Source: Eledone cirrhosa (lineage: Eukaryota). From it: a stretch of 64,000 nt of DNA. Positions within the stretch are counted from its first letter, which is position 1, and each line of letters starts with the position of its first letter. The stretch is from the NCBI GenBank assembly GCA_964016885.1, contig OZ024743.1, forward strand, positions 189,224,001 to 189,288,000, read 5' to 3'. Position numbers and translations under genes: made by a program. This document shows, one piece after another, positions 29,065 to 63,169 of the stretch. The notes beneath the pieces are model-generated. The model saw only the letters and a program-made list of their open reading frames with translations. It was not told the origin of the DNA and searched no databases.

Positions 29065-29069
<5 letters not shown>
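28790..29069 (+). repeat. PLE 3'-terminal (pLTR-like) segment, copy 1
   Basis: Colinear diverged copy of 37652-37950, which lies downstream of a GIY-YIG ORF. Runs directly into (TA)n. Confidence 0.7.
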
Positions 29070-36652
<7,583 letters not shown>

Positions 36653-36852
36653 NNNNNNNNNNNNNNNNNNNNNNNNNNNNNNNNNNNNNNNNNNNNNNNN
36701 NNNNNNNNNNNNNNNNNNNNNNNNNNNNNNNNNNNNNNNNNNNNNNNNNNNNNNNNNNNNNNNNNNNNNNNNNNNNNNNNNNNNNNNNNNNNNNNNNNNN
36801 NNNNNNNNNNNNNNNNNNNNNNNNNNNNNNNNNNNNNNNNNNNNNNNNNNNN
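36653..36852. other. Assembly gap (200 N)
   Basis: Run of N. Confidence 1.
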
Positions 36853-37950
36853 GCTAGACATAAGATAGGGAAGGCCACATCATGGTACGACAACCAGAGA
36901 TATCAGAGTGTCATGTTTGTGGACGCCACCCCTGGAGGGAAATTAGCTAACCAGTGTAGAAAGGCCCTGAGAAAGACCCACTTAAAAATAAAGGTGGTAG
37001 AAAAGCCAGGAACCACCATAAAATCCCTGATCAGCAAAACCTACCCTTTTAAGAAAACCCACTGTACCAATAGGAAATGTATCATATGTAAGGTGAACCC
37101 CCGGATAAACTGTAAAACTAGAAACGTAGTCTATAGCATAAGATGTACAGAGGGTACTTGTAGAAACACGACAACAACATACATAGGTGAGACAGCTCGT
37201 AGCATAGGTGAAAGGATAGACCAACACTGGGGGGAACTAAAAGGACGAAAAAACGGGTCAGTACTATACGAACATGCTAGACAACATCATGACGGTAACA
37301 TAGACAACATAGAAATTAGAATAATATCTAAACATAGGAATGACCCAGCAGATAGGCAAATCAGAGAGGCCAGTGAAATAGAAATTAGAAGACCAAAGCT
37401 AAACAGAAAGAATGAGTGGAACAACAACAACACCCAAACAAACAACACTGACCTAAGAGAAGTATAAATAAATAAGTAAATTAAATTAAATAAAATAAGA
37501 TAAATAAATACATACACAAGCACATAAACACACACTAGTCACCCAGCAGACACAACACTATACACACTAGTCACACATCACACACGCAAACGCATGCGCA
37601 AAGAAGACAAAATAAAATAAGATAAACAAACAAGCAAACAAATAAATAAATCTTTAGACGGACTGAACAAAAAAAATGGCGTAGACATACAACACAACAG
37701 GAGGAACAATGAATATAACACCACTGACGATGTTGCAGATGTGCAACGAAAGATTTATGTAAACTATATATATATGTGTTTGTCTATATTGTATCTGTAT
37801 TATTTTATTTTTGACCACCGGTCAGTCAATGGCAACATTGAGGACCGAGTAAGTTAGATCGCAGATATATATATATAAAAGACAGCGAGAAGCGAAAACC
37901 AACCAAACAGTGAGTGTGTTCTGTTATTAATTCTGGCAATATTACGCAAA
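36853..37950 (+). mobile_element. Penelope-like element 3' part: Zn-rich linker plus GIY-YIG endonuclease (ORF to 37467) and pLTR-like tail
   Basis: Open frame FVDATPGG...KVVEKPG...CTNRKCIIC...NVVYSIRC...YIGETARSIGERIDQH...LYEH...H...RQIREA..I....PKLNRKNEW. The 5' part is lost in the gap. Confidence 0.9.
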
Positions 37951-38033
37951 TATGACCCTCCCCAAATATAACAATATCTGTTTCGACACACGATTTCATA
38001 TAAAAAAACCTCGCAAAACTAATTCATCGCCGC

Positions 38034-40862
<2,829 letters not shown>

Positions 40863-41848: not shown

Positions 41849-41894
<46 letters not shown>

Positions 41895-41895
41895 C

Positions 41896-41926
<31 letters not shown>

Positions 41927-42110
41927 TATATATATAATATACATATATATACACATAGACACACACACACACATACATAAATATACACACATATACAAAC
42001 ACATACATACATATACACACATCCACACTAAGAACATACATACACACACATATATAAACATATACACATACACACATACATACATATACACATATACATA
42101 CAAATACACA

Positions 42111-42140
<30 letters not shown>

Positions 42141-42142
<2 letters not shown>

Positions 42143-42203
42143 AATGTAAGTATGCATGTATACGTACATACATATATGTATACAGACGTACAGTAGCATG
42201 CAC

Positions 42204-42235
<32 letters not shown>

Positions 42236-45200
42236 ATATACATATGCATACAGGTACACATACATATATGCACGTATCAGTTTAGCGGCGCTAACGTCGC
42301 TTTGTTCGTTTGTAAACAAACTGAACAGCCTGAATTTATGCCATACGGTGTTAAGGCAACCACGTCACCTTTTTGTTCAACACTGACACAGGAACGATGT
42401 ACTAGTTTCAAGCTTGTTAGCTATCATCAGCACCGTTTACCCATCTGCCAGATAGTTGAACGTTCGAAAGTATATACTTTCCTTATGAAAATTAACGGCT
42501 GAGCAGCCTAATTTGCATATTGAGTGAGTTAAATCGGTTAGGCATACCGAAAACGATAAATTGAAACAAAATGAAAACGAAATTTCATTTCTCACTCTTA
42601 GTATGGCACTTACTTAAATGTAAGTATGCATGTATACGTACATACATATATGTATACAGACGTACAGTAGCATGCACATATACATATATATATATATATA
42701 TATACACATATATATACATATGCATACAGGTACACATACATATATGCACGTATCAGTTTAGCGGCGCTAACGTCGCTTTGTTCGTTTGTAAACAAACTGA
42801 ACAGCCTGAATTTATGCCATACGGTGTTAAGGCAACCACGTCACCTTTTTGTTCAACACTGACACAGGAACGATGTACTAGTTTCAAGCTTGTTAGCTAT
42901 CATCAGCACCGTTTACCCATCTGCCAGATAGTTGAACGTTCGAAAGTATATACTTTCCTTATGAAAATTAACGGCTGAGCAGCCTAATTTGCATATTGAG
43001 TGAGTTAAATCGGTTAGGCATACCGAAAACGATAAATTGAAACAAAATGAAAACGAAATTTCATTTCTCACTCTTAGTATGGCACTTACTTAAATGTAAG
43101 TATGCATGTATACGTACATACATATATGTATACAGACGTACAGTAGCATGCACATATACATATATATATATATATATATACACATATATATACATATGCA
43201 TACAGGTACACATACATATATGCACGTATCAGTTTAGCGGCGCTAACGTCGCTTTGTTCGTTTGTAAACAAACTGAACAGCCTGAATTTATGCCATACGG
43301 TGTTAAGGCAACCACGTCACCTTTTTGTTCAACACTGACACAGGAACGATGTACTAGTTTCAAGCTTGTTAGCTATCATCAGCACCGTTTACCCATCTGC
43401 CAGATAGTTGAACGTTCGAAAGTATATACTTTCCTTATGAAAATTAACGGCTGAGCAGCCTAATTTGCATATTGAGTGAGTTAAATCGGTTAGGCATACC
43501 GAAAACGATAAATTGAAACAAAATGAAAACGAAATTTCATTTCTCACTCTTAGTATGGCACTTACTTAAATGTAAGTATGCATGTATACGTACATACATA
43601 TATGTATACAGACGTACAGTAGCATGCACATATACATATATATATATATATATATACACATATATATACATATGCATACAGGTACACATACATATATGCA
43701 CGTATCAGTTTAGCGGCGCTAACGTCGCTTTGTTCGTTTGTAAACAAACTGAACAGCCTGAATTTATGCCATACGGTGTTAAGGCAACCACGTCACCTTT
43801 TTGTTCAACACTGACACAGGAACGATGTACTAGTTTCAAGCTTGTTAGCTATCATCAGCACCGTTTACCCATCTGCCAGATAGTTGAACGTTCGAAAGTA
43901 TATACTTTCCTTATGAAAATTAACGGCTGAGCAGCCTAATTTGCATATTGAGTGAGTTAAATCGGTTAGGCATACCGAAAACGATAAATTGAAACAAAAT
44001 GAAAACGAAATTTCATTTCTCACTCTTAGTATGGCACTTACTTAAATGTAAGTATGCATGTATACGTACATACATATATGTATACAGACGTACAGTAGCA
44101 TGCACATATACATATATATATATATATATATACACATATATATACATATGCATACAGGTACACATACATATATGCACGTATCAGTTTAGCGGCGCTAACG
44201 TCGCTTTGTTCGTTTGTAAACAAACTGAACAGCCTGAATTTATGCCATACGGTGTTAAGGCAACCACGTCACCTTTTTGTTCAACACTGACACAGGAACG
44301 ATGTACTAGTTTCAAGCTTGTTAGCTATCATCAGCACCGTTTACCCATCTGCCAGATAGTTGAACGTTCGAAAGTATATACTTTCCTTATGAAAATTAAC
44401 GGCTGAGCAGCCTAATTTGCATATTGAGTGAGTTAAATCGGTTAGGCATACCGAAAACGATAAATTGAAACAAAATGAAAACGAAATTTCATTTCTCACT
44501 CTTAGTATGGCACTTACTTAAATGTAAGTATGCATGTATACGTACATACATATATGTATACAGACGTACAGTAGCATGCACATATACATATATATATATA
44601 TATATATACACATATATATACATATGCATACAGGTACACATACATATATGCACGTATCAGTTTAGCGGCGCTAACGTCGCTTTGTTCGTTTGTAAACAAA
44701 CTGAACAGCCTGAATTTATGCCATACGGTGTTAAGGCAACCACGTCACCTTTTTGTTCAACACTGACACAGGAACGATGTACTAGTTTCAAGCTTGTTAG
44801 CTATCATCAGCACCGTTTACCCATCTGCCAGATAGTTGAACGTTCGAAAGTATATACTTTCCTTATGAAAATTAACGGCTGAGCAGCCTAATTTGCATAT
44901 TGAGTGAGTTAAATCGGTTAGGCATACCGAAAACGATAAATTGAAACAAAATGAAAACGAAATTTCATTTCTCACTCTTAGTATGGCACTTACTTAAATG
45001 TAAGTATGCATGTATACGTACATACATATATGTATACAGACGTACAGTAGCATGCACATATACATATATATATATATATATATACACATATATATACATA
45101 TGCATACAGGTACACATACATATATGCACGTATCAGTTTAGCGGCGCTAACGTCGCTTTGTTCGTTTGTAAACAAACTGAACAGCCTGAATTTATGCCAT

Positions 45201-46929
45201 ACGGTGTTAAGGCAACCACGTCACCTTTTTGTTCAACACTGACACAGGAACGATGTACTAGTTTCAAGCTTGTTAGCTATCATCAGCACCGTTTACCCAT
45301 CTGCCAGATAGTTGAACGTTCGAAAGTATATACTTTCCTTATGAACATTAACGGCTGAGCAGCCTAATTTGCATATTGAGTGAGTTAAATCGGTTAGGCA
45401 TACCGAAAACGATAAATTGAAACAAAATGAAAACGAAATTTCATTTCTCACTCTTAGTATGGCACTTACTTAAATGTAAGTATGCATGTATACGTACATA
45501 CATATATGTATACAGACGTACAGTAGCATGCACATATACATATATATATATATATATATACACATATATATACATATGCATACAGGTACACATACATATA
45601 TGCACGTATCAGTTTAGCGGCGCTAACGTCGCTTTGTTCGTTTGTAAACAAACTGAACAGCCTGAATTTATGCCATACGGTGTTAAGGCAACCACGTCAC
45701 CTTTTTGTTCAACACTGACACAGGAACGATGTACTAGTTTCAAGCTTGTTAGCTATCATCAGCACCGTTTACCCATCTGCCAGATAGTTGAACGTTCGAA
45801 AGTATATACTTTCCTTATGAAAATTAACGGCTGAGCAGCCTAATTTGCATATTGAGTGAGTTAAATCGGTTAGGCATACCGAAAACGATAAATTGAAACA
45901 AAATGAAAACGAAATTTCATTTCTCACTCTTAGTATGGCACTTACTTAAATGTAAGTATGCATGTATACGTACATACATATATGTATACAGACGTACAGT
46001 AGCATGCACATATACATATATATATATATATATATACACATATATATACATATGCATACAGGTACACATACATATATGCACGTATCAGTTTAGCGGCGCT
46101 AACGTCGCTTTGTTCGTTTGTAAACAAACTGAACAGCCTGAATTTATGCCATACGGTGTTAAGGCAACCACGTCACCTTTTTGTTCAACACTGACACAGG
46201 AACGATGTACTAGTTTCAAGCTTGTTAGCTATCATCAGCACCGTTTACCCATCTGCCAGATAGTTGAACGTTCGAAAGTATATACTTTCCTTATGAAAAT
46301 TAACGGCTGAGCAGCCTAATTTGCATATTGAGTGAGTTAAATCGGTTAGGCATACCGAAAACGATAAATTGAAACAAAATGAAAACGAAATTTCATTTCT
46401 CACTCTTAGTATGGCACTTACTTAAATGTAAGTATGCATGTATACGTACATACATATATGTATACAGACGTACAGTAGCATGCACATATACATATATATA
46501 TATATATATATACACATATATATACATATGCATACAGGTACACATACATATATGCACGTATCAGTTTAGCGGCGCTAACGTCGCTTTGTTCGTTTGTAAA
46601 CAAACTGAACAGCCTGAATTTATGCCATACGGTGTTAAGGCAACCACGTCACCTTTTTGTTCAACACTGACACAGGAACGATGTACTAGTTTCAAGCTTG
46701 TTAGCTATCATCAGCACCGTTTACCCATCTGCCAGATAGTTGAACGTTCGAAAGTATATACTTTCCTTATGAAAATTAACGGCTGAGCAGCCTAATTTGC
46801 ATATTGAGTGAGTTAAATCGGTTAGGCATACCGAAAACGATAAATTGAAACAAAATGAAAACGAAATTTCATTTCTCACTCTTAGTATGGCACTTACTTA
46901 AATGTAAGTATGCATGTATACGTACATAC
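42141..46929 (-). repeat. Left arm of 476-bp hammerhead tandem array (~10 units, HHR sense on minus)
   Basis: 476-bp period. HHRs start at 42393, 42869, 43345, 43821, 44297, 44773, 45249, 45725, 46201 and 46677. Confidence 0.97.
42393..42437 (-). ncRNA. Type I hammerhead ribozyme (representative of 10 left-arm copies)
   Basis: Minus strand: AACGGTG-CTGATGA-TAGCTaacaAGCTT-GAAA-CTA-GTA-CATCGTT. Confidence 0.9.
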
Positions 46930-47011
46930 TAAGAGTGAGAAATGAAATTTCGTTTTCATTTTGTTTCAATTTATCGTTTTCGGTATGCCTAACCGATTTA
47001 ACTCACTCAAT

Positions 47012-47019
47012 ATGCAAAT
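47012..47019 (+). promoter_or_regulatory. Octamer motif ATGCAAAT (one per array unit)
   Basis: Perfect octamer about 75 nt upstream of the HHR in each unit. Function is inferred only. Confidence 0.4.
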
Positions 47020-47092
47020 TAGGCTGCTCAGCCGTTAATTTTCATAAGGAAAGTATATACTTTCGAACGTTCAACTATCTGGCAGATGGGTA

Positions 47093-47137
47093 AACGGTGC
47101 TGATGATAGCTAACAAGCTTGAAACTAGTACATCGTT
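47093..47137 (+). ncRNA. Type I hammerhead ribozyme (representative of 10 right-arm copies), predicted cleavage GUA| after 47130
   Basis: Stem I AACGGTG/CATCGTT (7 bp, one G-U), core CUGAUGA, stem II AGCU/AGCU with AACA loop, GAAA, palindromic stem III ACUAGU, GUA triplet. Confidence 0.9.
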
Positions 47138-50100
47138 CCTGTGTCAGTGTTGAACAAAAAGGTGACGTGGTTGCCTTAACACCGTATGGCATAAATTCAG
47201 GCTGTTCAGTTTGTTTACAAACGAACAAAGCGACGTTAGCGCCGCTAAACTGATACGTGCATATATGTATGTGTACCTGTATGCATATGTATATATATGT
47301 GTATATATATATATATATATATGTATATGTGCATGCTACTGTACGTCTGTATACATATATGTATGTACGTATACATGCATACTTACATTTAAGTAAGTGC
47401 CATACTAAGAGTGAGAAATGAAATTTCGTTTTCATTTTGTTTCAATTTATCGTTTTCGGTATGCCTAACCGATTTAACTCACTCAATATGCAAATTAGGC
47501 TGCTCAGCCGTTAATTTTCATAAGGAAAGTATATACTTTCGAACGTTCAACTATCTGGCAGATGGGTAAACGGTGCTGATGATAGCTAACAAGCTTGAAA
47601 CTAGTACATCGTTCCTGTGTCAGTGTTGAACAAAAAGGTGACGTGGTTGCCTTAACACCGTATGGCATAAATTCAGGCTGTTCAGTTTGTTTACAAACGA
47701 ACAAAGCGACGTTAGCGCCGCTAAACTGATACGTGCATATATGTATGTGTACCTGTATGCATATGTATATATATGTGTATATATATATATATATATATGT
47801 ATATGTGCATGCTACTGTACGTCTGTATACATATATGTATGTACGTATACATGCATACTTACATTTAAGTAAGTGCCATACTAAGAGTGAGAAATGAAAT
47901 TTCGTTTTCATTTTGTTTCAATTTATCGTTTTCGGTATGCCTAACCGATTTAACTCACTCAATATGCAAATTAGGCTGCTCAGCCGTTAATTTTCATAAG
48001 GAAAGTATATACTTTCGAACGTTCAACTATCTGGCAGATGGGTAAACGGTGCTGATGATAGCTAACAAGCTTGAAACTAGTACATCGTTCCTGTGTCAGT
48101 GTTGAACAAAAAGGTGACGTGGTTGCCTTAACACCGTATGGCATAAATTCAGGCTGTTCAGTTTGTTTACAAACGAACAAAGCGACGTTAGCGCCGCTAA
48201 ACTGATACGTGCATATATGTATGTGTACCTGTATGCATATGTATATATATGTGTATATATATATATATATATATGTATATGTGCATGCTACTGTACGTCT
48301 GTATACATATATGTATGTACGTATACATGCATACTTACATTTAAGTAAGTGCCATACTAAGAGTGAGAAATGAAATTTCGTTTTCATTTTGTTTCAATTT
48401 ATCGTTTTCGGTATGCCTAACCGATTTAACTCACTCAATATGCAAATTAGGCTGCTCAGCCGTTAATTTTCATAAGGAAAGTATATACTTTCGAACGTTC
48501 AACTATCTGGCAGATGGGTAAACGGTGCTGATGATAGCTAACAAGCTTGAAACTAGTACATCGTTCCTGTGTCAGTGTTGAACAAAAAGGTGACGTGGTT
48601 GCCTTAACACCGTATGGCATAAATTCAGGCTGTTCAGTTTGTTTACAAACGAACAAAGCGACGTTAGCGCCGCTAAACTGATACGTGCATATATGTATGT
48701 GTACCTGTATGCATATGTATATATATGTGTATATATATATATATATATATGTATATGTGCATGCTACTGTACGTCTGTATACATATATGTATGTACGTAT
48801 ACATGCATACTTACATTTAAGTAAGTGCCATACTAAGAGTGAGAAATGAAATTTCGTTTTCATTTTGTTTCAATTTATCGTTTTCGGTATGCCTAACCGA
48901 TTTAACTCACTCAATATGCAAATTAGGCTGCTCAGCCGTTAATTTTCATAAGGAAAGTATATACTTTCGAACGTTCAACTATCTGGCAGATGGGTAAACG
49001 GTGCTGATGATAGCTAACAAGCTTGAAACTAGTACATCGTTCCTGTGTCAGTGTTGAACAAAAAGGTGACGTGGTAGCCTTAACACCGTATGGCATAAAT
49101 TCAGGCTGTTCAGTTTGTTTACAAACGAACAAAGCGACGTTAGCGCCGCTAAACTGATACGTGCATATATGTATGTGTACCTGTATGCATATGTATATAT
49201 ATGTGTATATATATATATATATATATGTATATGTGCATGCTACTGTACGTCTGTATACATATATGTATGTACGTATACATGCATACTTACATTTAAGTAA
49301 GTGCCATACTAAGAGTGAGAAATGAAATTTCGTTTTCATTTTGTTTCAATTTATCGTTTTCGGTATGCCTAACCGATTTAACTCACTCAATATGCAAATT
49401 AGGCTGCTCAGCCGTTAATTTTCATAAGGAAAGTATATACTTTCGAACGTTCAACTATCTGGCAGATGGGTAAACGGTGCTGATGATAGCTAACAAGCTT
49501 GAAACTAGTACATCGTTCCTGTGTCAGTGTTGAACAAAAAGGTGACGTGGTTGCCTTAACACCGTATGGCATAAATTCAGGCTGTTCAGTTTGTTTACAA
49601 ACGAACAAAGCGACGTTAGCGCCGCTAAACTGATACGTGCATATATGTATGTGTACCTGTATGCATATGTATATATATGTGTATATATATATATATATAT
49701 ATGTATATGTGCATGCTACTGTACGTCTGTATACATATATGTATGTACGTATACATGCATACTTACATTTAAGTAAGTGCCATACTAAGAGTGAGAAATG
49801 AAATTTCGTTTTCATTTTGTTTCAATTTATCGTTTTCGGTATGCCTAACCGATTTAACTCACTCAATATGCAAATTAGGCTGCTCAGCCGTTAATTTTCA
49901 TAAGGAAAGTATATACTTTCGAACGTTCAACTATCTGGCAGATGGGTAAACGGTGCTGATGATAGCTAACAAGCTTGAAACTAGTACATCGTTCCTGTGT
50001 CAGTGTTGAACAAAAAGGTGACGTGGTTGCCTTAACACCGTATGGCATAAATTCAGGCTGTTCAGTTTGTTTACAAACGAACAAAGCGACGTTAGCGCCG

Positions 50101-50625
50101 CTAAACTGATACGTGCATATATGTATGTGTACCTGTATGCATATGTATATATATGTGTATATATATATATATATATATGTATATGTGCATGCTACTGTAC
50201 GTCTGTATACATATATGTATGTACGTATACATGCATACTTACATTTAAGTAAGTGCCATACTAAGAGTGAGAAATGAAATTTCGTTTTCATTTTGTTTCA
50301 ATTTATCGTTTTCGGTATGCCTAACCGATTTAACTCACTCAATATGCAAATTAGGCTGCTCAGCCGTTAATTTTCATAAGGAAAGTATATACTTTCGAAC
50401 GTTCAACTATCTGGCAGATGGGTAAACGGTGCTGATGATAGCTAACAAGCTTGAAACTAGTACATCGTTCCTGTGTCAGTGTTGAACAAAAAGGTGACGT
50501 GGTTGCCTTAACACCGTATGGCATAAATTCAGGCTGTTCAGTTTGTTTACAAACGAACAAAGCGACGTTAGCGCCGCTAAACTGATACGTGCATATATGT
50601 ATGTGTACCTGTATGCATATGTATA

Positions 50626-50656
<31 letters not shown>

Positions 50657-51730
50657 GTATATGTGCATGCTACTGTACGTCTGTATACATATATGTATGT
50701 ACGTATACATGCATACTTACATTTAAGTAAGTGCCATACTAAGAGTGAGAAATGAAATTTCGTTTTCATTTTGTTTCAATTTATCGTTTTCGGTATGCCT
50801 AACCGATTTAACTCACTCAATATGCAAATTAGGCTGCTCAGCCGTTAATTTTCATAAGGAAAGTATATACTTTCGAACGTTCAACTATCTGGCAGATGGG
50901 TAAACGGTGCTGATGATAGCTAACAAGCTTGAAACTAGTACATCGTTCCTGTGTCAGTGTTGAACAAAAAGGTGACGTGGTTGCCTTAACACCGTATGGC
51001 ATAAATTCAGGCTGTTCAGTTTGTTTACAAACGAACAAAGCGACGTTAGCGCCGCTAAACTGATACGTGCATATATGTATGTGTACCTGTATGCATATGT
51101 ATATATATGTGTATATATATATATATATATATGTATATGTGCATGCTACTGTACGTCTGTATACATATATGTATGTACGTATACATGCATACTTACATTT
51201 AAGTAAGTGCCATACTAAGAGTGAGAAATGAAATTTCGTTTTCATTTTGTTTCAATTTATCGTTTTCGGTATGCCTAACCGATTTAACTCACTCAATATG
51301 CAAATTAGGCTGCTCAGCCGTTAATTTTCATAAGGAAAGTATATACTTTCGAACGTTCAACTATCTGGCAGATGGGTAAACGGTGCTGATGATAGCTAAC
51401 AAGCTTGAAACTAGTACATCGTTCCTGTGTCAGTGTTGAACAAAAAGGTGACGTGGTTGCCTTAACACCGTATGGCATAAATTCAGGCTGTTCAGTTTGT
51501 TTACAAACGAACAAAGCGACGTTAGCGCCGCTAAACTGATACGTGCATATATGTATGTGTACCTGTATGCATATGTATATATATGTGTATATATATATAT
51601 ATATATATGTATATGTGCATGCTACTGTACGTCTGTATACATATATGTATGTACGTATACATGCATACTTACATTTAAGTAAGTGCCATACTAAGAGTGA
51701 GAAATGAAATTTCGTTTTCATTTTGTTTCA

Positions 51731-51736
<6 letters not shown>

Positions 51737-51771
<35 letters not shown>

Positions 51772-52085
51772 TATGTATATACACGTACATATACACACAC
51801 ATATACATATAATCACACATACTATATAGACACACATATATATAACCACACACATACATGCACATATACAACACTTACATACTAATATACATACAGATAT
51901 ACACATACATAGCTATATATACACACAAATATATACAGACTTACATATATACATACAGACAAATACTTACGCATCTATATATCGGTATATACATACAAAC
52001 ACCACTACACTATCACACAACTTAGAAATACAAAGAGAAAGGTATATACCTATACACACATACATATACAAATAGAAAAACATAT

Positions 52086-52124
<39 letters not shown>

Positions 52125-52415
52125 TATATATATACATATCTATATATAACATATATATATATATATATATATACATACACATACATATACACATACACAC
52201 ACATACACATACACACACATACATACATGTACACACACATAGAAATATATACGCATACACACATACACACATACATATAAAGTCATACACACACAAACAC
52301 CTACACGAACATACACATACACATATATAATGATATATATATACACACACACACACACACAACACATACACACATACACATATATATAAAAAAAATAAAT
52401 AATAAAGATATATAC

Positions 52416-52466
<51 letters not shown>

Positions 52467-52862
52467 CATATATACATAAACATACTCATACATACACACA
52501 TACATAGACATATATGTACATACATACACGTACATCGATATACATACATATATATATACACACATAGACATATACATACATACACACACAACTTACATAC
52601 ACTCATATATATACATGTATATTCATACATAGAATTAGATATATAATCATACATACATATGCACTTACTTATACTCATATATACAAATACATACGCATCC
52701 ATATATGCGTATATACATAAAAACGCCACTACAACCTCACCTAACTCAGACATACAAATAAAAATAAAAAGGCATATGTATATACATATATACACGCATT
52801 AATAGAGACATATATATACATACATATATATATGTCTCTATTAATGTATATATATATGTATG

Positions 52863-53202: not shown

Positions 53203-54695
53203 TCATTGCGGGCAGCCTCACCACTTCCACTCTGGAGCAGAACATCTGAGGCAATATCATGGTTCCAAAAATTACCCGATAAACACCACACTCGCTTCCT
53301 GCAACTCGACATAGAAAACTACTATGCCTCTATCTCGGAGCCCCTCCTGAAGGACGCAATTAACTTTGCCAGGAACTTTACCACCATTACCGATGCTGAG
53401 CAAGTTGTTATCCTCCACGCTCGTAAGACATTTCCATACCACAATGGATCTTACTGGATCAACAAGAAATCTCAGACCCCATTTGACGTTAGCATGGGGG
53501 CGAGTGACTCGGCTGAAATTAGCGACCTTGTGGGCCTGTACATCCTACATAACCTGAAGAACCTCTTTACCGGCCTAACGGGAGGTTTATACCGAGACGA
53601 TGGCCTCTTCGCCCTGCATAAGGTTAACCCCAGAACCACCGATGGGTTTCGGAAAAACTTAAGCTCTTTCTTCTCTAATCTAGGATTTAGTATAACTATA
53701 GATTCTAATTTGACTAGGGCCAACTTCTTAGATGTCACTCTCGACCTAGATACTTCCCTCTATTACCCGTACCACAAACCTAACGAGTCCCTTAAATATA
53801 TTAATGTTAATTCAAACCACCCCCAAAACATCACTGATAACATGGTAAAAAGCGTCTCTATTAGAATATCTGGCCTCTCCGCCAACAAAGATATTTTTAA
53901 TGCATCTGCCTCCTACTACAATGACGCCCTCGCCCGTAGCGGATTTAAAGATAAGATAACTTACCTAGAAACCACCGCAAGATTGCAGAGGAGGAATAGA
54001 CATAGGCAGATTAGCTGGTACAACCCTCCCTTCAATAGAGAGGTTTCTACTCCGATAGCTAGGATTTTCTTCACTTTACTGAAATTACACTTCCCCATTC
54101 AACATAGGTACCACACCATCTTTAATAAGAACACAATAAGACTGTCTTACTCCACCACACCTAACCTAGCTAGGAATATAGCCAACCACAATTCTAAAAA
54201 ATTAAATAAGCCAACCACCTCCGAAACCAATCCCCGGACTGGGGCTCTATGTAATTGCCTAAATAAGGAAGCATGCCCACTTGAAAACAAATGCCTCACA
54301 AATGATATCGTATACAAATGCGATGTCATCTCAGGCACCGAGGATTGCAAAAAAACTTACATCGGCATGACCTCCAACAACTTTAAGACCCGTTGGTATG
54401 CCCATACCCACTCCTTCAGAAGACCGGATAAATCAAATCAGACAACACACGCCTCCTACGTTTGGGACCTCAAAAGGAACTCCACCCCCGTCACGCTTAA
54501 ATGGAAAATACTCCAGAAAGCGCGCTCTTACAACGGAGGACACAAGGGCTGCGACCTTTGTATTTCAGAGAGCTACGAAATTTTATTCGCCAAGGGCCGC
54601 TCCTGAACAAACTCTCTGAACACTGCCCGAACTGCATGCACAAGAACTTTGCAACTTTCAAACACTTTAAGCCAGTGTTAATGCCCGATGGCTAA
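53203..54695 (+). mobile_element. 5'-truncated Penelope-like retroelement: RT plus C-terminal GIY-YIG endonuclease
   Basis: Open frame of ~465 aa: [69 protein letters not shown]...YIGMT...FKTRW..H, CDLCISE. A single frameshift near 54597 moves LLNKLSE...CMHKN into another frame. Inserted in (TA)n. Confidence 0.93.
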
Positions 54696-54839
54696 AAAAA
54701 ACCTCCCCCTATTGGCCCCTATACCTCCTCCCCACCCTACCCCCACCCACCCTCAACCTGAAATACGGCCACTATGGTTATGTGAGTACCTCTTTCGTAT
54801 CTACATTTTCTGCCTGTAGAGGTGTTTTTATGTGCCTGC

Positions 54840-55138
54840 GTATATGCGTATATTTATTGAGTACTTATTTATTTGTATGTGTATATATATATTTGTTTGT
54901 ATGTGTGTATATGTATGTGTATGTGTATATATATATATATATATGTTTGTGTGTATATGTGTTTTATGTGTGTATATTTATGTATGTATATGTATGTATA
55001 TATGTATATATATGTATATATATATATGTATGTATATATATGTGTGTATATATGTGTACGTATGTGTATGTGTATGTATGTATGTATGTATGTATGTGTA
55101 TGTGTATGTATATATGTATATATATATATATATATTTG

Positions 55139-55191
<53 letters not shown>

Positions 55192-55224
55192 CTATATATA
55201 TGTGTGTGTGTGTGTATGTGCGTA

Positions 55225-55257
<33 letters not shown>

Positions 55258-55302
55258 GTGTGTGTGGGCAGGTGTGTGTATATATATATATATATATGTG
55301 TA

Positions 55303-55336
<34 letters not shown>
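54840..55336. repeat. (TA/TG)n tract
   Basis: Directly visible. Confidence 0.9.
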
Positions 55337-55337
<1 letters not shown>

Positions 55338-55390
55338 GTTAGAACACGAAAAGTGTGAAACACAGAATGTTCACTTTTCGTGTTCTAACA
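55337..55390. repeat. Perfect 19-bp inverted repeat hairpin (16-nt loop)
   Basis: TGTTAGAACACGAAAAGTG ... CACTTTTCGTGTTCTAACA. Confidence 0.9.
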
Positions 55391-56058
55391 TATATACCTA
55401 GCTTCTTTAAAAAATTTTCGGGGATAGCCGTGGTGGTGGTGATCGTATGTCATTGGCTAATTTTCAACCAATCAGAGTACCTCTCTCTATATCTCTTCCA
55501 CTGTTACTTACGCCTGTTTCTCTCTATCTGTTCCGTCTCTATATATATCTCTTACTCTTTCGCTTTGCACTCCTCCCCTTCAATACCATCTCTCCCCCTC
55601 TCTATATATTTGTTACTCTATCGCTGCACGCTCCTCTCCTTCAATATATCAATTACACACGCTTTACACTCCTTTATCCCCAGCGCCCCTATATATACTC
55701 CCCCCTCTCCCGCATCTATATTTTAATGTACCGTTGCACCGTGAATATATGTGTCTATATATATATACATATATATTGTATATACACATTCATGTATGTA
55801 TATACACTGGTTTTATGTGTGTATTGTAAATTTGTACTGTTAAAACACGAAACTAACATTCGATTGACACTTTGATTACCTGTACAGGCAATAGTTATTA
55901 GAATGCTGTTGAAGTGTGTATATATTTTTGGGGGACATCCTGTATATACACACATTATATATAATACAATAAACAGATAAATACACACATATATATATGA
56001 GCTTATTTAATTATAAATATTGTGAATTTTTAACTCAGTTCAATTATATATATAAATG

Positions 56059-56105
56059 GCTTCTACGGGACTAGAACTGTTTCATTCGAAAGAAATCATC
56101 ATAAT
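56059..56105 (-). ncRNA. Degenerate hammerhead, paralog of 60580-60630
   Basis: Minus strand: ATGATGA-TTTCtttcGAAT-GAAA-CAGTTCTAGTCCC-GTA-GAA. C3 is mutated to A and stem I is eroded. Confidence 0.55.
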
Positions 56106-56304
56106 ATTGAGAGGGGGGACTAGATAAAATATTTCAAATCAAATGTGTATAAGTTATAAGTTAAAATGTATAAATAGAGACGATAGTGGAGGTATATCTG
56201 TTTAGTGGAACAGTAGACGATAGAATTAAATACAGACGATAATCTCCCTTTAATGAAACAGCAGACGATAGAATTAAGGCAATTTAAATTTTAAGCATTT
56301 GCAT

Positions 56305-56357
56305 TTTTGCCTTTCATCGTTACGGGGTCGATAAAATAAAGTACCAGTAATACACTG
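56305..56357 (+). mobile_element. SINE core fragment
   Basis: TTTGCCTTTCATCGTTACGGGGTCGATAAAATAAAGTACCAGTAATACACTG. Confidence 0.75.
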
Positions 56358-56713
56358 TCACTAGACGACTTTCAAATTGAATTGTTGGTTCCATTTCTTT
56401 AGTATTTTCAATTGTAGTTATCTACTTAAAAAGCGTTACACGGTTAGAGACATAATTCGTAAGTTATATCTTCCCTATTAAACCATTGCATTATTTCGCC
56501 TACAATAGAACAAAAATGAAATGTTCTTTAAAGAAACAGGAATATAACTTTATAAAAAAAAAAGTTGCATCCGCTTCTTTTATCATTGATAATTTTTTCG
56601 TTTTAATATTAATTGTTTTTTGTAGTTGTTTATATTAAAAATCTTACTGTAATATTTACTTAAACGAAGGCAAACATCTAAACTTATAGATTAATCTTGA
56701 GCGAAGGACTAGA

Positions 56714-56784
<71 letters not shown>

Positions 56785-57176
56785 GAAGAATGATAAAATT
56801 TCAAGCAAAGAGTTTAATTAGGTATATTTTGTAATATTATTAACTAATTATTATAATTAACGCGCATATTTTGCTATCCTCAAACACGTTTACACATGGC
56901 ATGAAATATAACTAATCCGAGATGGCTAGGTTTCATCTTCTAACTGGATAAACGAAATCCATTATGTCTTGACAACAACATGAGGTAACATTATGTTATT
57001 CACAGACACACTTTGTACACTGTTCCATATCAGAATGTATTTCCTTCGTCACATTCACAAACAGTATTGAAAATATGTTCTTCGGCAAATAAAAATGTTT
57101 TGTTCATAATATTTCAACTAGCGATTGCTCTACTTCACGCACGACCACCATAAATTAATGACCAGCTCAACACAAG

Positions 57177-57345
57177 TATTGGTAGAGCGTCAGACACCAT
57201 GCTTTGCAGTATTGTTATGGTCCTTTGCATTCTAAGTTCACATCCTGCCGAGGTTAACTTCGACTTTCATACTTACTAATTCGATAAAATAAAGTACCAG
57301 TAATGGACTGCCGTAATGGATTTGTGCCGAAAAATAGAAACACTA
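57177..57345 (+). mobile_element. Diverged SINE copy
   Basis: GGTAGAGCGTCAGACACCATGC...GCCGAGGTTAACTT...GATAAAATAAAGTACCAG...TAGAAACA. Confidence 0.75.
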
Positions 57346-57898
57346 TTAATGTGCAATAAGAGCAAAATATAACGACATTGCTCAATTATTTTATCTAATG
57401 TTGTAATAACACAAGGAAATGTTGTTTGTGTATTTTTTTTTATATTTGCTCATAGGCTTTTACAATTTCGCTCAGCCAACAACTATTAAAAAGTGAGTTG
57501 CTTAAGATAACAATTTAATCACAAATTGTTGCTATCTTTTAATACACTCCAACAAGTCATCAAATTATGTACAATAAAAACAAATCTTATTAATTTGCTC
57601 AGGGAATATAAAGAAAATGTATATACACTGATAATTGCAAATGTATGTAAATATTTTGTTTTTGTATTGTATATTTTATGTTTTCTATTATGTATAATAT
57701 ATTGATTTAATATTGATTGTTTTTTGTAGTTGTTTATATTAAAAGTCTGAAAATATTTTTATACATCTTACACTAATATTTATAAGATAATTTATAATAA
57801 CAATTACATAATCTAATTACATTACAACGATAATTTATTATTAATATATATCCTGTTTAACTAGAGTTATTACAAGCGTTGCCTTAAAAAAATATTAA

Positions 57899-58851
57899 AC
57901 TAGACATGAAAAATGCGCAAGCTCAAAAGTGCCACAGAATGTTATAATAAACCTTCAAAAGTGTGGGACTAGAGTTGTTGCTAAAAAATATTGTAATCAT
58001 TATATATCGTACATCTGTGGCATCCTTTATAAAAATAGCTTAAACCAACGAAGCCTTTATTTTTACGCTATTTCACTTAGTTAATTCTTAGAGTGTAACA
58101 TATAAAAATAAATACATCTATGTTTAATGTAATAACAGCTATAAATAATTACGTAATATTATTATCATATACTCATAGTAACAAAATAATTGTGTTGAAA
58201 CTTAATATGATGCTTATATGAACGATCAAATCTATAATGATAATTTCTTAAATATACTAATAGTAAAATAATTTAGTTATCTATTGTTACATTTTCATAG
58301 AACTATAATATTAACAATCGTATTGCATTATCAAATTTTTATCACTACAAACTTTCATATTGGAATTACCTTAAGCCACTTATTACTTCGCTTTCGTACT
58401 TTTACAGCTGTAGATATTGCGCTGTATCTTATATCTAATATCAATATCTCGTGGTAATTTGCATGAAGTGTAAAATAGGTTTATTAATAACTTTAATATG
58501 AAATGTATTATACAGGGCTGCGGAGTCGGTCAAAAATTGACTGGCTCCAACTCAGGATCCGATACTCCATTATTTCCTAAATTTCAGCTCCGCAGCTCTG
58601 TTATTATATTAATTAATTTATTTTATAGTTGTAAATCATATTTTTATATGTTACACTCTAAGAATTAACTAAGTGAAATAGCGTAAAAATAAAGGCTTCG
58701 TTGGTTTAAGCTATTTTTATAAAGGATGCCACAGAATGTACGATATATAATGATTACAATATTTTTTAGCAACAACTCTAGTCCCACACTTTTGAAGGTT
58801 TATTATAACATTCTGTGGCACTTTTGAGCTTGCGCATTTTTCATGTCTAGT
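57899..58851. repeat. ~212-bp near-perfect inverted repeat (57899-58110 / 58639-58851)
   Basis: ACTAGACATGAAAAATGCGCAAGC...CATATAAAAATA and its reverse complement, with about one indel. The right arm abuts (TA/TG)n. Confidence 0.92.
58513..58600. mobile_element. 88-bp hAT-type MITE
   Basis: TIRs CAGGGCTGCGGAG and (reverse complement) CAGAGCTGCGGAG. 8-bp TSD GTATTATA / TTATTATA. Confidence 0.7.
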
Positions 58852-60120
<1,269 letters not shown>

Positions 60121-60579
60121 GTATGTTTTTTTTGTGAGTGTGTCTGTTGATTTTTGGCATATAGTTGATTAGTTTAAGAGAAGTTCGAAGATAATTGTAA
60201 GATATGCACTCAGTATTTTGAACCTGTCTACAGAATTCTCTAAACCTTTGTCACTTAGTAGAACCTTAATGATTTTAGCTTTTAAAGAATCTCCCTTTTC
60301 TTTAATTCTATCGACCATGACTGACCCCCCACTGATCTTATAGACATCTGTTAGCTTAAGAGAAACTTAATGACAAGGAATGGTATGCCATCCGGAACCT
60401 GTTTATAGAATTCTGTCTGCCCTTGTTACTCTAAAAAATAAAAATAAACTATAGCTTTGTAGAATTAGCTTTTAATGAATTCCCTTTTCTATCAACCAAT
60501 GACCTACACCCATCCCACTCCCCACCCTCTCCTACCACTTGTAGAGACCTATAAATACCATTTTTATTTTTTGACACCC

Positions 60580-60630
60580 AGATTCCTGATGATTTCTAAA
60601 GAATGAAACAGTTCTAGTCCTGTAGAATCT
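60580..60630 (+). ncRNA. Type I hammerhead ribozyme, predicted cleavage GUA| after 60624
   Basis: AGATTC-CTGATGA-TTTCtaaaGAAT-GAAA-CAGttctagtcCT-GTA-GAATCT. 6-bp stem I and 4-bp stem III. Confidence 0.85.
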
Positions 60631-60712
60631 CTTCTATATTAAAACTTTTATACTCTGCTATGTATTGAGTACCTTACTTACTGTGGTTACCTCCGATTCA
60701 ACCCGGAATAAC

Positions 60713-62081
<1,369 letters not shown>

Positions 62082-62253
62082 AATATAATATGTTGAGAAG
62101 GTAACACACCAGAGAGATATATATAGTGCGTTATCAATAATACAGGGAAAAAACCACCAGTGTATGGAATCTATAACCTATGAAAGGCAGACTATAGACA
62201 CGATAATTAAAAATATAAATTAAAGCGTAAATAAATACCTTTATAACTATATA

Positions 62254-62332
62254 ACACACGTACAAATCCAAAGATATGTTTCACCAGAAAATTTGTTGAA
62301 AGAAATGGTAGTCTCGGTTCATCAGCGTGTGT
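62254..62332 (-). ncRNA. Type I hammerhead ribozyme
   Basis: Minus strand: ACACACG-CTGATGA-ACC(G)AGA..loop..TCTGGT-GAAA-CATATC-tttg-GATTT-GTA-CGTGTGT. 7-bp stem I and 6/7-bp stem III. Confidence 0.88.
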
Positions 62333-62792
62333 AAGGCTATACATTTCAGACAACACTAAGAGAATTTTACAATTGACTGTCCAGCTACACGAGGGAGAGA
62401 GAAGTCACAGCGTGTTTAAGGGCAGTGAACCAGTGGCCTCTGAGAGACGAACTGCTAGAAAGGGCAGCCCAAAGCCACTCAGAGAAGTGTGCTCAACCAA
62501 ACAGAGATAGGAAAGACTGTTGTTAGGAGCGAAATATCACGATAAATTAACGTAGGCATAGGCCGTCGTTATTCCCTGTAAATAATGTGCTCAAAGGGGA
62601 AGAGATCCTGAGCCCTTTAAAATATAATATGTTGAGAAGGTAACACACCAGAGAGAGATATATAGTGCGCTATCAATAATACAGGGAAAAAACCACCAGT
62701 GTATGGAATCTATAACCTATGAAAGGCAGACTATAGACACAATAATTAAAAATATAAATTAAAGCGTAAATAAATACCTTTATAACTATATA

Positions 62793-62871
62793 ACACACGT
62801 ACAAATCCAAAGATATGTTTCACCAGAAAATTTGTTGAAAGAAATGGTAGTCTCGGTTCATCAGCGTGTGT
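62793..62871 (-). ncRNA. Type I hammerhead ribozyme (identical copy, +539 bp)
   Basis: Same sequence as 62254-62332. Confidence 0.88.
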
Positions 62872-63103
62872 AAGGCTATACATTTCAGACAACACTAAGA
62901 GAATTTTACAATTGATTCCATACAATAGATTCCATACACTGGTGGTTTTTTCCCTGTATTATTGATAGCGCACTATATATCTCTCTCTGGTGTGTTACCT
63001 TCTCAACATATTATATTCTAAAAGGCTCAGGATCTCTTCCCCTTTGAGCACATTATTTACAGGGAATAACGACGGCCTATGCCTCCGTTAATTTATCGTG
63101 ATA

Positions 63104-63169
63104 TATATATTATATATATATATGTATATATATATTATATATATATATATTTTATATATATATATATAT

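What the first reader, a model, noticed from the sequence alone, without database searches (positions are those of the whole stretch)
42141..51736. 476-bp satellite in which every unit carries a hammerhead ribozyme (20 copies): candidate retrozyme / circular-RNA system
Seen: ~20 almost identical 476-bp units, each with AACGGUG-CUGAUGA-uAGCUaacaAGCUu-GAAA-CUA-GUA-CAUCGUU, a complete type I hammerhead core, and no credible coding capacity. Known: tandem HHR repeats (newt satellite 2, Schistosoma SM-alpha, cricket pDo500, metazoan non-LTR retrozymes) are transcribed as multimers, self-cleave to monomers and can circularise. Inference: this array yields ~476-nt monomers or circles and arose recently by rolling reverse transcription of a circular RNA, probably using a Penelope-type RT like the one 1.5 kb downstream. 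I know of no description of this family but cannot search to confirm that.
Basis: partly seen in the sequence, partly recalled or inferred. Interest (0 to 1): 0.95.

Follow-up and report, generated by a model that had tools for sequence, protein, structure and literature searches.

The report
Two-armed ribozyme repeat with Penelope footprint
This is a known kind of jumping repeat that carries a self-cutting RNA, but it and its copies elsewhere in the genome are inserted as two back-to-back arms with two fixed ends, the footprint of Penelope retrotransposon enzymes, which points to how such repeats spread.

Summary
The 20 hammerhead-bearing 476-bp units are real, but they are not one head-to-tail satellite. 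They form a 9.6-kb palindrome: two 10-unit arms pointing away from each other, joined by a 5-nt overlap, inserted as one piece into a (TA)n run (empty sites found). The family is large (10,122 exact ribozyme cores) and dispersed. Of 56 sampled insertions, 47 are two-armed; in 46 of them one arm ends at unit position 50 and the other at about 461-467. Centre junctions carry microhomology, both arms share the same variants, and arms run through the cleavage site. Three Penelope-like element (PLE) families and two other hammerhead repeats here show the same anatomy, which matches the PLE 'tail' and the two-site, two-strand initiation shown in vitro for another PLE. Verdict: a non-LTR retrozyme (known class), most likely copied in trans by a PLE enzyme priming from both nicked strands on one RNA, probably a circle. 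Not shown: expression, cleavage, circularity, and which PLE is the partner (no terminal-repeat homology to the three tested). I did not find this footprint described for retrozymes in nine literature searches.

The parts
42141..46929 (-). Left arm, 10.06 units, ribozyme sense on minus strand; its outer (RNA 3') end is the short 'B' end, unit position 467
46925..51736 (+). Right arm, 10.11 units, ribozyme sense on plus strand; its outer end is the long 'A' end, unit position 50
46925..46929 (.). Central junction: 5-nt overlap shared by the 5'-truncated ends of both arms (unit positions 437 and 1)
47093..47137 (+). Type I hammerhead (first of 10 plus-strand copies; 10 more on minus): helix I 7 bp, helix II 4 bp plus U.U, helix III 2 bp with palindromic loop; predicted cut after 47130
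47386..47450 (+). 'Tail' segment between the B (461-467) and A (50) initiation sites, 59-65 nt, shown for one internal unit boundary; B lies in a hairpin loop, A in a U-rich stretch after a second hairpin (predicted)
47012..47045 (+). Octamer-like motif within an imperfect inverted repeat, conserved in the sister family; RNA hairpin or promoter element (untested)
47254..47374 (+). Long TA/TG hairpin of the unit; its TA run sets the unit length (about 454-494 nt across loci)
42109..42141 (.). Left target flank: (TA)n with one AC interruption, repeated on the right flank; likely target-site duplication
51737..51776 (.). Right target flank: (TA)n with the same AC interruption, then the host repeat continues

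Best explanation
The unit is a non-autonomous non-LTR retrozyme. Multimeric transcripts are cut by dimeric hammerheads and ligated to ~476-nt circles (inferred from the class). A PLE reverse transcriptase/GIY-YIG protein, probably a dimer, binds the RNA, nicks both strands of a (TA)n run, and starts two cDNAs at two fixed sites about 60 nt apart (A and B), one from each DNA end, using 2-3 nt of TA pairing. Each cDNA runs on for a random length, up to 16 turns, through the cleavage site. The two cDNA 3' ends then anneal by 1-5 nt and are filled in, giving a divergent palindrome with one long and one short end. Shown: the anatomy, its regularity, single-variant origin of both arms, the empty site, the same anatomy in PLEs of this genome. 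Inferred: transcription, cleavage, circle, enzyme identity, order of steps. Odds within this reading that the template is a circle: about 0.65.
For: 47 of 56 A-anchored loci are two-armed; 46 of the 47 end at B on the other arm, 1 not reached. 6 of 6 loci picked by internal sequence are A/B two-armed. From coordinates on C1 to 344.5 Mb: 0 A/A, 0 B/B, 29 A/B divergent pairs. 36 of 37 filler-free junctions have 1-5 nt overlap against about half expected at zero. Both arms agree at a SNP in 17 of 17 loci and at a 6-nt insertion in 31 of 31; private variants run through both arms in three loci. 27 of 43 A arms and 24 of 43 B arms cross the cleavage site; 2 of 86 5' ends lie near it, 2.7 expected. 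Three empty copies of the host site. A 4,117-bp PLE has one long and one short end in 18 of 19 divergent pairs; two other PLE families have two such ends. PMC11167929: a PLE protein nicks and extends both strands and initiates at two adjacent RNA sites that define the tail. PMC8557442: inverted 5'-truncated copy plus tail at one end is the PLE hallmark.
Against: No homology between the unit and any of three PLE terminal repeats (z at most 1.9), whereas the 2026 preprint finds such homology for 24 of 57 Xenopus families. The tail here is 59-65 nt, longer than the 30-40 bp of the literature. Whole-molecule covariation with the sister family is not significant (29 of 80 changed pairs still pair, 22.7 expected, p 0.06); the hammerhead covariation rests mostly on one family split. 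U.U in helix II and the minimal helix III predict slow cleavage; only 1 of 9 Xenopus dimers cleaved in vitro and the studied PLE used uncleaved RNA. Arm lengths are uncorrelated (rho -0.05). 8 of 56 loci are single-armed. TA-run length varies inside some arrays. Agreement between arms could also come from conversion between palindrome arms.
Confidence: 0.8

Rival explanations
1. Same PLE-driven twin priming, but the template is a long uncleaved multimeric transcript read through an existing array; the hammerhead is slow or silent and no circle is involved. (A variant within the best explanation that removes the circle.)
For: Source arrays are themselves nearly clonal, so a multimer would also give clonal arms. 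Weak ribozyme features. Unprocessed RNA was the dominant substrate for the Anolis PLE. The 4.1-kb PLE also forms tandems.
Against: Arrays of 8-16 near-identical units with locus-private variants in every unit (L049, L075, L194, L063, L078), and a period-2 pattern over six units in L192, are the simple output of monomer and dimer circles. Ribozyme core and helix III palindrome are invariant in 31 of 31 distinct rows. Circles are shown for coral, mussel and axolotl retrozymes.
Confidence: 0.28
2. A DNA-level satellite: short PLE-derived seeds expanded in place by unequal exchange or extrachromosomal DNA circles, with the inversions made by fold-back repair.
For: The 2026 preprint favours local tandem expansion by unequal crossover. 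L065 shows irregular repeated variants that suggest later duplication.
Against: DNA fold-back gives mirrored ends (A/A or B/B) and mirrored variants; neither is seen. Fixed ends with strand polarity matching cDNA priming, uncorrelated arm lengths and random inner ends fit reverse transcription.
Confidence: 0.07
3. Assembly or library artefact (fold-back chimera, repeat over-expansion).
For: The two arms here are nearly equal in length and almost error-free; one sister-family locus (L168) is a perfect mirror including flanks. No long reads could be laid.
Against: Ends differ (A vs B), private variants are not mirrored, flanks keep one polarity and join into an empty site seen three times elsewhere; dozens of loci share the anatomy; contigs of public runs hold the family. 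The exact unit count at this locus is still unverified.
Confidence: 0.03

Closest known systems
Metazoan non-LTR retrozymes (Cervera and de la Pena 2020, PMC7229834; coral, mussel, axolotl; newt satellite 2, Schistosoma SM-alpha)
   Same: Tandem non-coding units with a type I hammerhead in each, GC below 45%, no LTR, structured predicted circle, thousands of copies, PLEs in the same genome. Axolotl HHR_Amex2 also has a U.U at the base of helix II and works better as a dimer.
   Different: Unit slightly longer than the 150-450 bp given. The parts I read describe no inverted arms, fixed ends or tail; PLE mobilisation is argued there from co-occurrence and shared ribozymes. No RNA evidence for this family.
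Li, Clavereau, Pollet 2026, bioRxiv 10.64898/2026.07.22.740005
   Same: Concludes that animal retrozymes are non-autonomous PLE derivatives.
   Different: Evidence there is distribution and terminal-repeat phylogeny in vertebrates, not insertion junctions; here junction anatomy is PLE-like but no terminal-repeat homologue was found among three PLE families.
Endonuclease-bearing Penelope-like elements (Neptune/Nematis-type and Hydra clade; PMC8557442, PMC11167929)
   Same: (TA)n targeting, inverted 5'-truncated arm, tail at one end only, two initiation sites, both strands used, hammerhead.
   Different: No ORF; many more tandem turns; tail about 60 nt; canonical rather than minimal hammerhead by the PMC4209133 description.
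L1 twin priming
   Same: Two cDNAs from the two target ends joined at microhomology give a divergent inversion.
   Different: In L1 the second primer starts at variable internal sites and the arms do not overlap; here both starts are fixed and both arms copy the same sequence.

Membership tests
non-LTR retrozyme | Tandem units each with a type I hammerhead core | tested here: met
   20 of 20 units; helices supported by compensatory changes; below Rfam thresholds
non-LTR retrozyme | Non-coding, GC below about 45-50%, no LTR | tested here: met
   GC 0.35-0.36; longest ORF 137 codons. Primer-binding site and polypurine tract were not searched separately
non-LTR retrozyme | Dispersed multi-copy arrays | tested here: met
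   10,122 exact cores, 910 A junctions, 478 B464 junctions
non-LTR retrozyme | Unit size 150-450 bp | tested here: inconclusive
   476 bp, just above; within the 51-972 bp range of the 2026 preprint
non-LTR retrozyme | Self-cleavage of the transcript | not testable with these tools
   needs in vitro transcription; monomer helix III cannot close
non-LTR retrozyme | Expressed as monomeric linear and circular RNA | not testable with these tools
   no RNA run could be laid
non-LTR retrozyme | Target-site duplication longer than 4 bp when present | tested here: inconclusive
   AC interruption on both flanks, once in 2 of 3 empty sites; same nearest interruption on both flanks in 13 of 26 informative loci, confounded by microsatellite structure
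PLE-mobilised element | Inverted 5'-truncated arm at the 5' end | tested here: met
   47 of 56 and 6 of 6 loci
PLE-mobilised element | Tail at one end only (two initiation sites) | tested here: met
   46 of 47; 0 A/A, 0 B/B; length 59-65 nt rather than 30-40
PLE-mobilised element | Microsatellite (TA)n target | tested here: met
   flanks of 41 loci listed
PLE-mobilised element | Homology to the terminal repeat of an autonomous PLE | tested here: not met
   three PLE families tested, none significant; other families in the genome not surveyed
autonomous PLE | RT plus GIY-YIG ORF | tested here: not met
   no ORF in the unit

The most novel reading that the evidence does not exclude
These arrays are a genomic record of a PLE enzyme dimer starting from both ends of a cut (TA)n site at two fixed points on a single 476-nt RNA circle and rolling round it many times, with strict one-long-one-short end pairing; at least three unrelated or distant circle families in this genome parasitise PLEs this way without detectable terminal-repeat homology, so recognition is by RNA shape. 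One chimeric insertion (retrozyme arm joined to a PLE arm) would be the same reaction with two different RNAs.
Probability: 0.5. Interest if true: 0.72.

Novelty: new variant of a known kind. Interest (0 to 1): 0.55.

Why it matters
Which enzyme moves animal retrozymes, and how PLEs make their tandem/inverted insertions, are both stated as open in the papers read. This family supplies base-level predictions (start sites at unit positions 50 and 461-467, one per DNA end; one RNA per insertion; read-through of the cut site) on a 476-nt template, next to young PLE families with intact-looking ORFs, so both questions can be tested in vitro. It also explains how kilobase palindromes are seeded at roughly a thousand or more sites in a genome.

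Tried and rejected
Rfam scan: nothing at gathering, only weak hits. Pfam did not name either PLE fragment (GIY-YIG E 0.066); the ESM Atlas placed the longer one among RT/GIY-YIG clusters; clades were assigned from linker motifs in PMC8557442, not from a tree. RNA: no RNA holder listed; laying contigs of four runs of unknown kind gave 5,278, 1, 0 and 31 records and says nothing about expression. Fold-back of a single cDNA was considered for the window and rejected: the ends differ and neither arm can template the other fully. Lock-step of the two enzymes (equal arms here) rejected: arm lengths uncorrelated in 43 loci. Linear monomer as template rejected: no pile-up of 5' ends at the cut site. 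Partner search by blastn and local alignment with shuffles: negative. Whole-circle covariation: not significant. L054 first looked like an exception; inspection showed a B end followed by an older fragment. Four complex or unresolved loci (L050, L054, L063, L183) were left out of the 43-locus junction statistics. A possible B/B pair at C1:437.95 Mb was not inspected. Only 60 of the first 100 listed A junctions (of 910), all on C1, were seen as sequence. snRNA-type promoter idea: lead only; the primary paper was not held. Earlier findings of the scan: none. I guessed a cephalopod host from recall for two paper searches; the host was not determined. Supplements of PMC7229834 (too large) and of the 2026 preprint were not seen and may show inverted retrozyme arrays.
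Full report
Observation. The window holds two 476-bp arrays, not one: 42141-46929 (10.06 units) and 46925-51736 (10.11 units), each the reverse complement of the other. Ten hammerhead cores lie on each strand, pointing outwards; the first plus-strand cut is predicted after 47130. Of 19 full units 16 are identical, and the three private differences are not mirrored between arms. The arms overlap by 5 nt at 46925-46929. Both outer ends abut (TA)n but at different places of the unit: position 50 on the right (A end), 467 on the left (B end). No long ORF is present.

The ribozyme. Rfam gave 0 hits at gathering and a weak HH9 hit (18.5 bits, E 0.082). The motif fits the 'canonical' metazoan type I described in PMC4209133 (part 1 of 4 read): helix I 7 bp, helix II 4 bp, helix III 2 bp with a palindromic 2-nt loop that cannot close in one molecule and is expected to pair between two copies. 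Helix II begins with U.U, as in axolotl HHR_Amex2, which cleaves modestly alone and better as a dimer (PMC7229834, parts 2-4 of 6 read). In 31 distinct rows from the fetched loci (2 junction-truncated rows dropped), core and helix III are invariant except position 7 and the cut base; five pairs change on both sides (27 cells against 7.2 shuffled, 0 of 500), nearly all from one split between this family and a 59%-identical sister family. Predicted circles of the two families look alike but whole-molecule covariation is not significant (p 0.06).

The family. The genome (3.0 Gb, host not determined) holds 10,122 exact 40-nt cores, 910 exact A junctions and 478 exact B464 junctions; reversed controls 0. 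I read 56 A-anchored loci from the first 100 listed, all on C1 (39, 17): 47 have an adjacent inverted arm, 8 are single-armed, 1 did not reach the junction. Of the 47, 46 end at B (mostly 461, 464, 467, where the unit offers TA or AT), 1 ran beyond the fetched DNA (L054 corrected). Six loci chosen by internal sequence are all A/B two-armed, up to 16 units in one arm. By coordinates alone on C1 to 344.5 Mb there are 0 A/A, 0 B/B and 29 A/B divergent pairs within 25 kb, 28 of them under 10 kb; one possible B/B pair further along C1 was not inspected.

Junctions and template. In 43 loci (4 complex ones left out), 37 central junctions have no filler and 36 of these overlap by 1-5 nt, where about half should show none; 6 have 2-15-nt fillers. 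Inner ends scatter round the unit, with 2 of 86 near the cut site (2.7 expected); 27 of 43 A arms and 24 of 43 B arms run through it; arm lengths are uncorrelated, so the equal arms in this window are chance. Both arms carry the same allele at a SNP in 17 of 17 loci (6 of them preselected for identity to the window) and at a 6-nt insertion in 31 of 31; private variants run through all units of both arms in L049, L075 and L194, and L192 alternates with period 2. Against a perfectly clonal origin, TA-run length wanders inside several arrays and L065 is irregular. The right flank belongs to another young repeat; three copies of that repeat show the two flanks joined, and the AC interruption found on both sides here occurs once in two of them, which suggests a target-site duplication. 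The palindrome is thus one insertion, not a fold-back chimera; the unit count itself awaits long reads.

PLEs in the same genome. A 4,117-bp PLE, a fragment of which lies at 36856-38034, has one long and one short end in 18 of 19 divergent pairs taken, 1 unresolved. The PLE at 53206-60714 and a second Hydra-type family also show two ends. The sister retrozyme and a third, unrelated hammerhead repeat (62077-63104) follow the rule in 11 of 17 and 10 of 18 distinct loci, with 1 and 3 exceptions and the rest single or unresolved. None of three PLE terminal repeats is detectably homologous to the unit. One locus joins a retrozyme arm to a PLE arm, but a later rearrangement is possible.

Mechanism. 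PMC8557442 (passages and section 11) gives the PLE hallmarks: inverted 5'-truncated copy, 30-40-bp tail often at one end only, (TA)n bias. PMC11167929 (parts 1-2 of 4) shows a purified PLE protein, predicted dimeric, nicking and extending both strands of AT-rich DNA and starting at two adjacent internal RNA sites that bound the tail; ribozyme cleavage was not needed. The arrays fit this in polarity and detail: each arm is the cDNA expected from priming at its own flank, one at each site, the two joined at microhomology as in L1 twin priming (recalled). I put 0.8 on PLE-driven twin priming from one RNA, and about 0.65 within that on a circular template; an uncleaved multimer from a clonal array is the main rival. 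Expression, cleavage and circularity are not shown.

Comparison and novelty. It works like a metazoan non-LTR retrozyme and meets every sequence criterion tested except size (slightly over) and terminal-repeat homology to a PLE (not met for three families); RNA criteria were untestable. PLE mobilisation has been proposed from co-occurrence (PMC7229834; PMC7761336 passages) and terminal-repeat phylogeny (bioRxiv 10.64898/2026.07.22.740005, parts 1-3 of 5). Opposite-strand hammerhead pairs from truncated PLEs were noted in PMC4209133. I found no description of retrozyme arrays with inverted arms and a two-end rule in nine searches (listings only unless cited above) nor in passages of PMC6431247; the library lacks most subscription papers, two relevant papers were not held and two supplements were unseen. 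Verdict: new variant of a known kind; interest 0.55, because it turns a proposed partnership into precise testable predictions while the class and each half of the signature are already known.

Noticed in passing
window 36856-38034 (+): 3' part of a very young PLE (CX4CxxC linker, Neptune/Nematis type by PMC8557442): 150 of 150 scored matches 100% identical in protein, 4,117-bp tandem unit, 1,217-codon open frame with a long Asn-rich stretch; one long and one short end in 18 of 19 divergent pairs, tail 43-63 nt, long end at an ATG. Closest tail length to this retrozyme; candidate partner.
   Followed up: partly
   Followed up: partly
window 62077-63104: Third hammerhead repeat family, 539-nt unit, also two-armed in (TA)n; of 18 distinct loci 10 long/short, 3 with other ends, 5 single-armed; ends about 85 nt apart; no similarity to the 476-nt unit.
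   Followed up: partly
L037:3549-4278: Sister retrozyme family, 469-nt unit, 59% identical, canonical G-C at the base of helix II, same A-end motif; of 17 distinct loci 11 long/short, 1 mirror, 3 unresolved, 2 single-armed.
   Followed up: partly
L076:4300-7000: Chimeric divergent insertion: retrozyme arm with A end joined through a 13-nt filler to a 5'-truncated arm of a second Hydra-type PLE; the filler resembles another repeat nearby, so a later rearrangement is not excluded; single case in 56.
   Followed up: partly
L192: Six tandem units alternate in one SNP and TA length (period 2), as a dimeric circle would give; single case.
   Followed up: no
L168: Sister-family insertion with identical ends and mirrored flanks; likely a later inverted duplication or an assembly fold-back.
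   Followed up: no
window 41850-42140 and 51737-52810: The array sits inside another young, low-complexity repeat with at least 40 near-identical copies, often in inverted pairs 4-10 kb apart; probably the 3' region of a further PLE-type element.
   Followed up: partly
unit ends of all six families: A short A/T-rich-ATCG or AACG motif lies at or within about 10 nt of one of the two ends in each family; chosen after the fact, not tested.
   Followed up: no
window 47012-47019: Octamer motif conserved in both sister families; newt satellite II is said to use an snRNA-type promoter (passage in PMC2220036). Ten further octamers occur elsewhere in the window, so weak.
   Followed up: no
window 29069-40859: About 11-kb (AT/GT) microsatellite with a 200-N assembly gap at 36654-36852 directly before the PLE fragment.
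   Followed up: no
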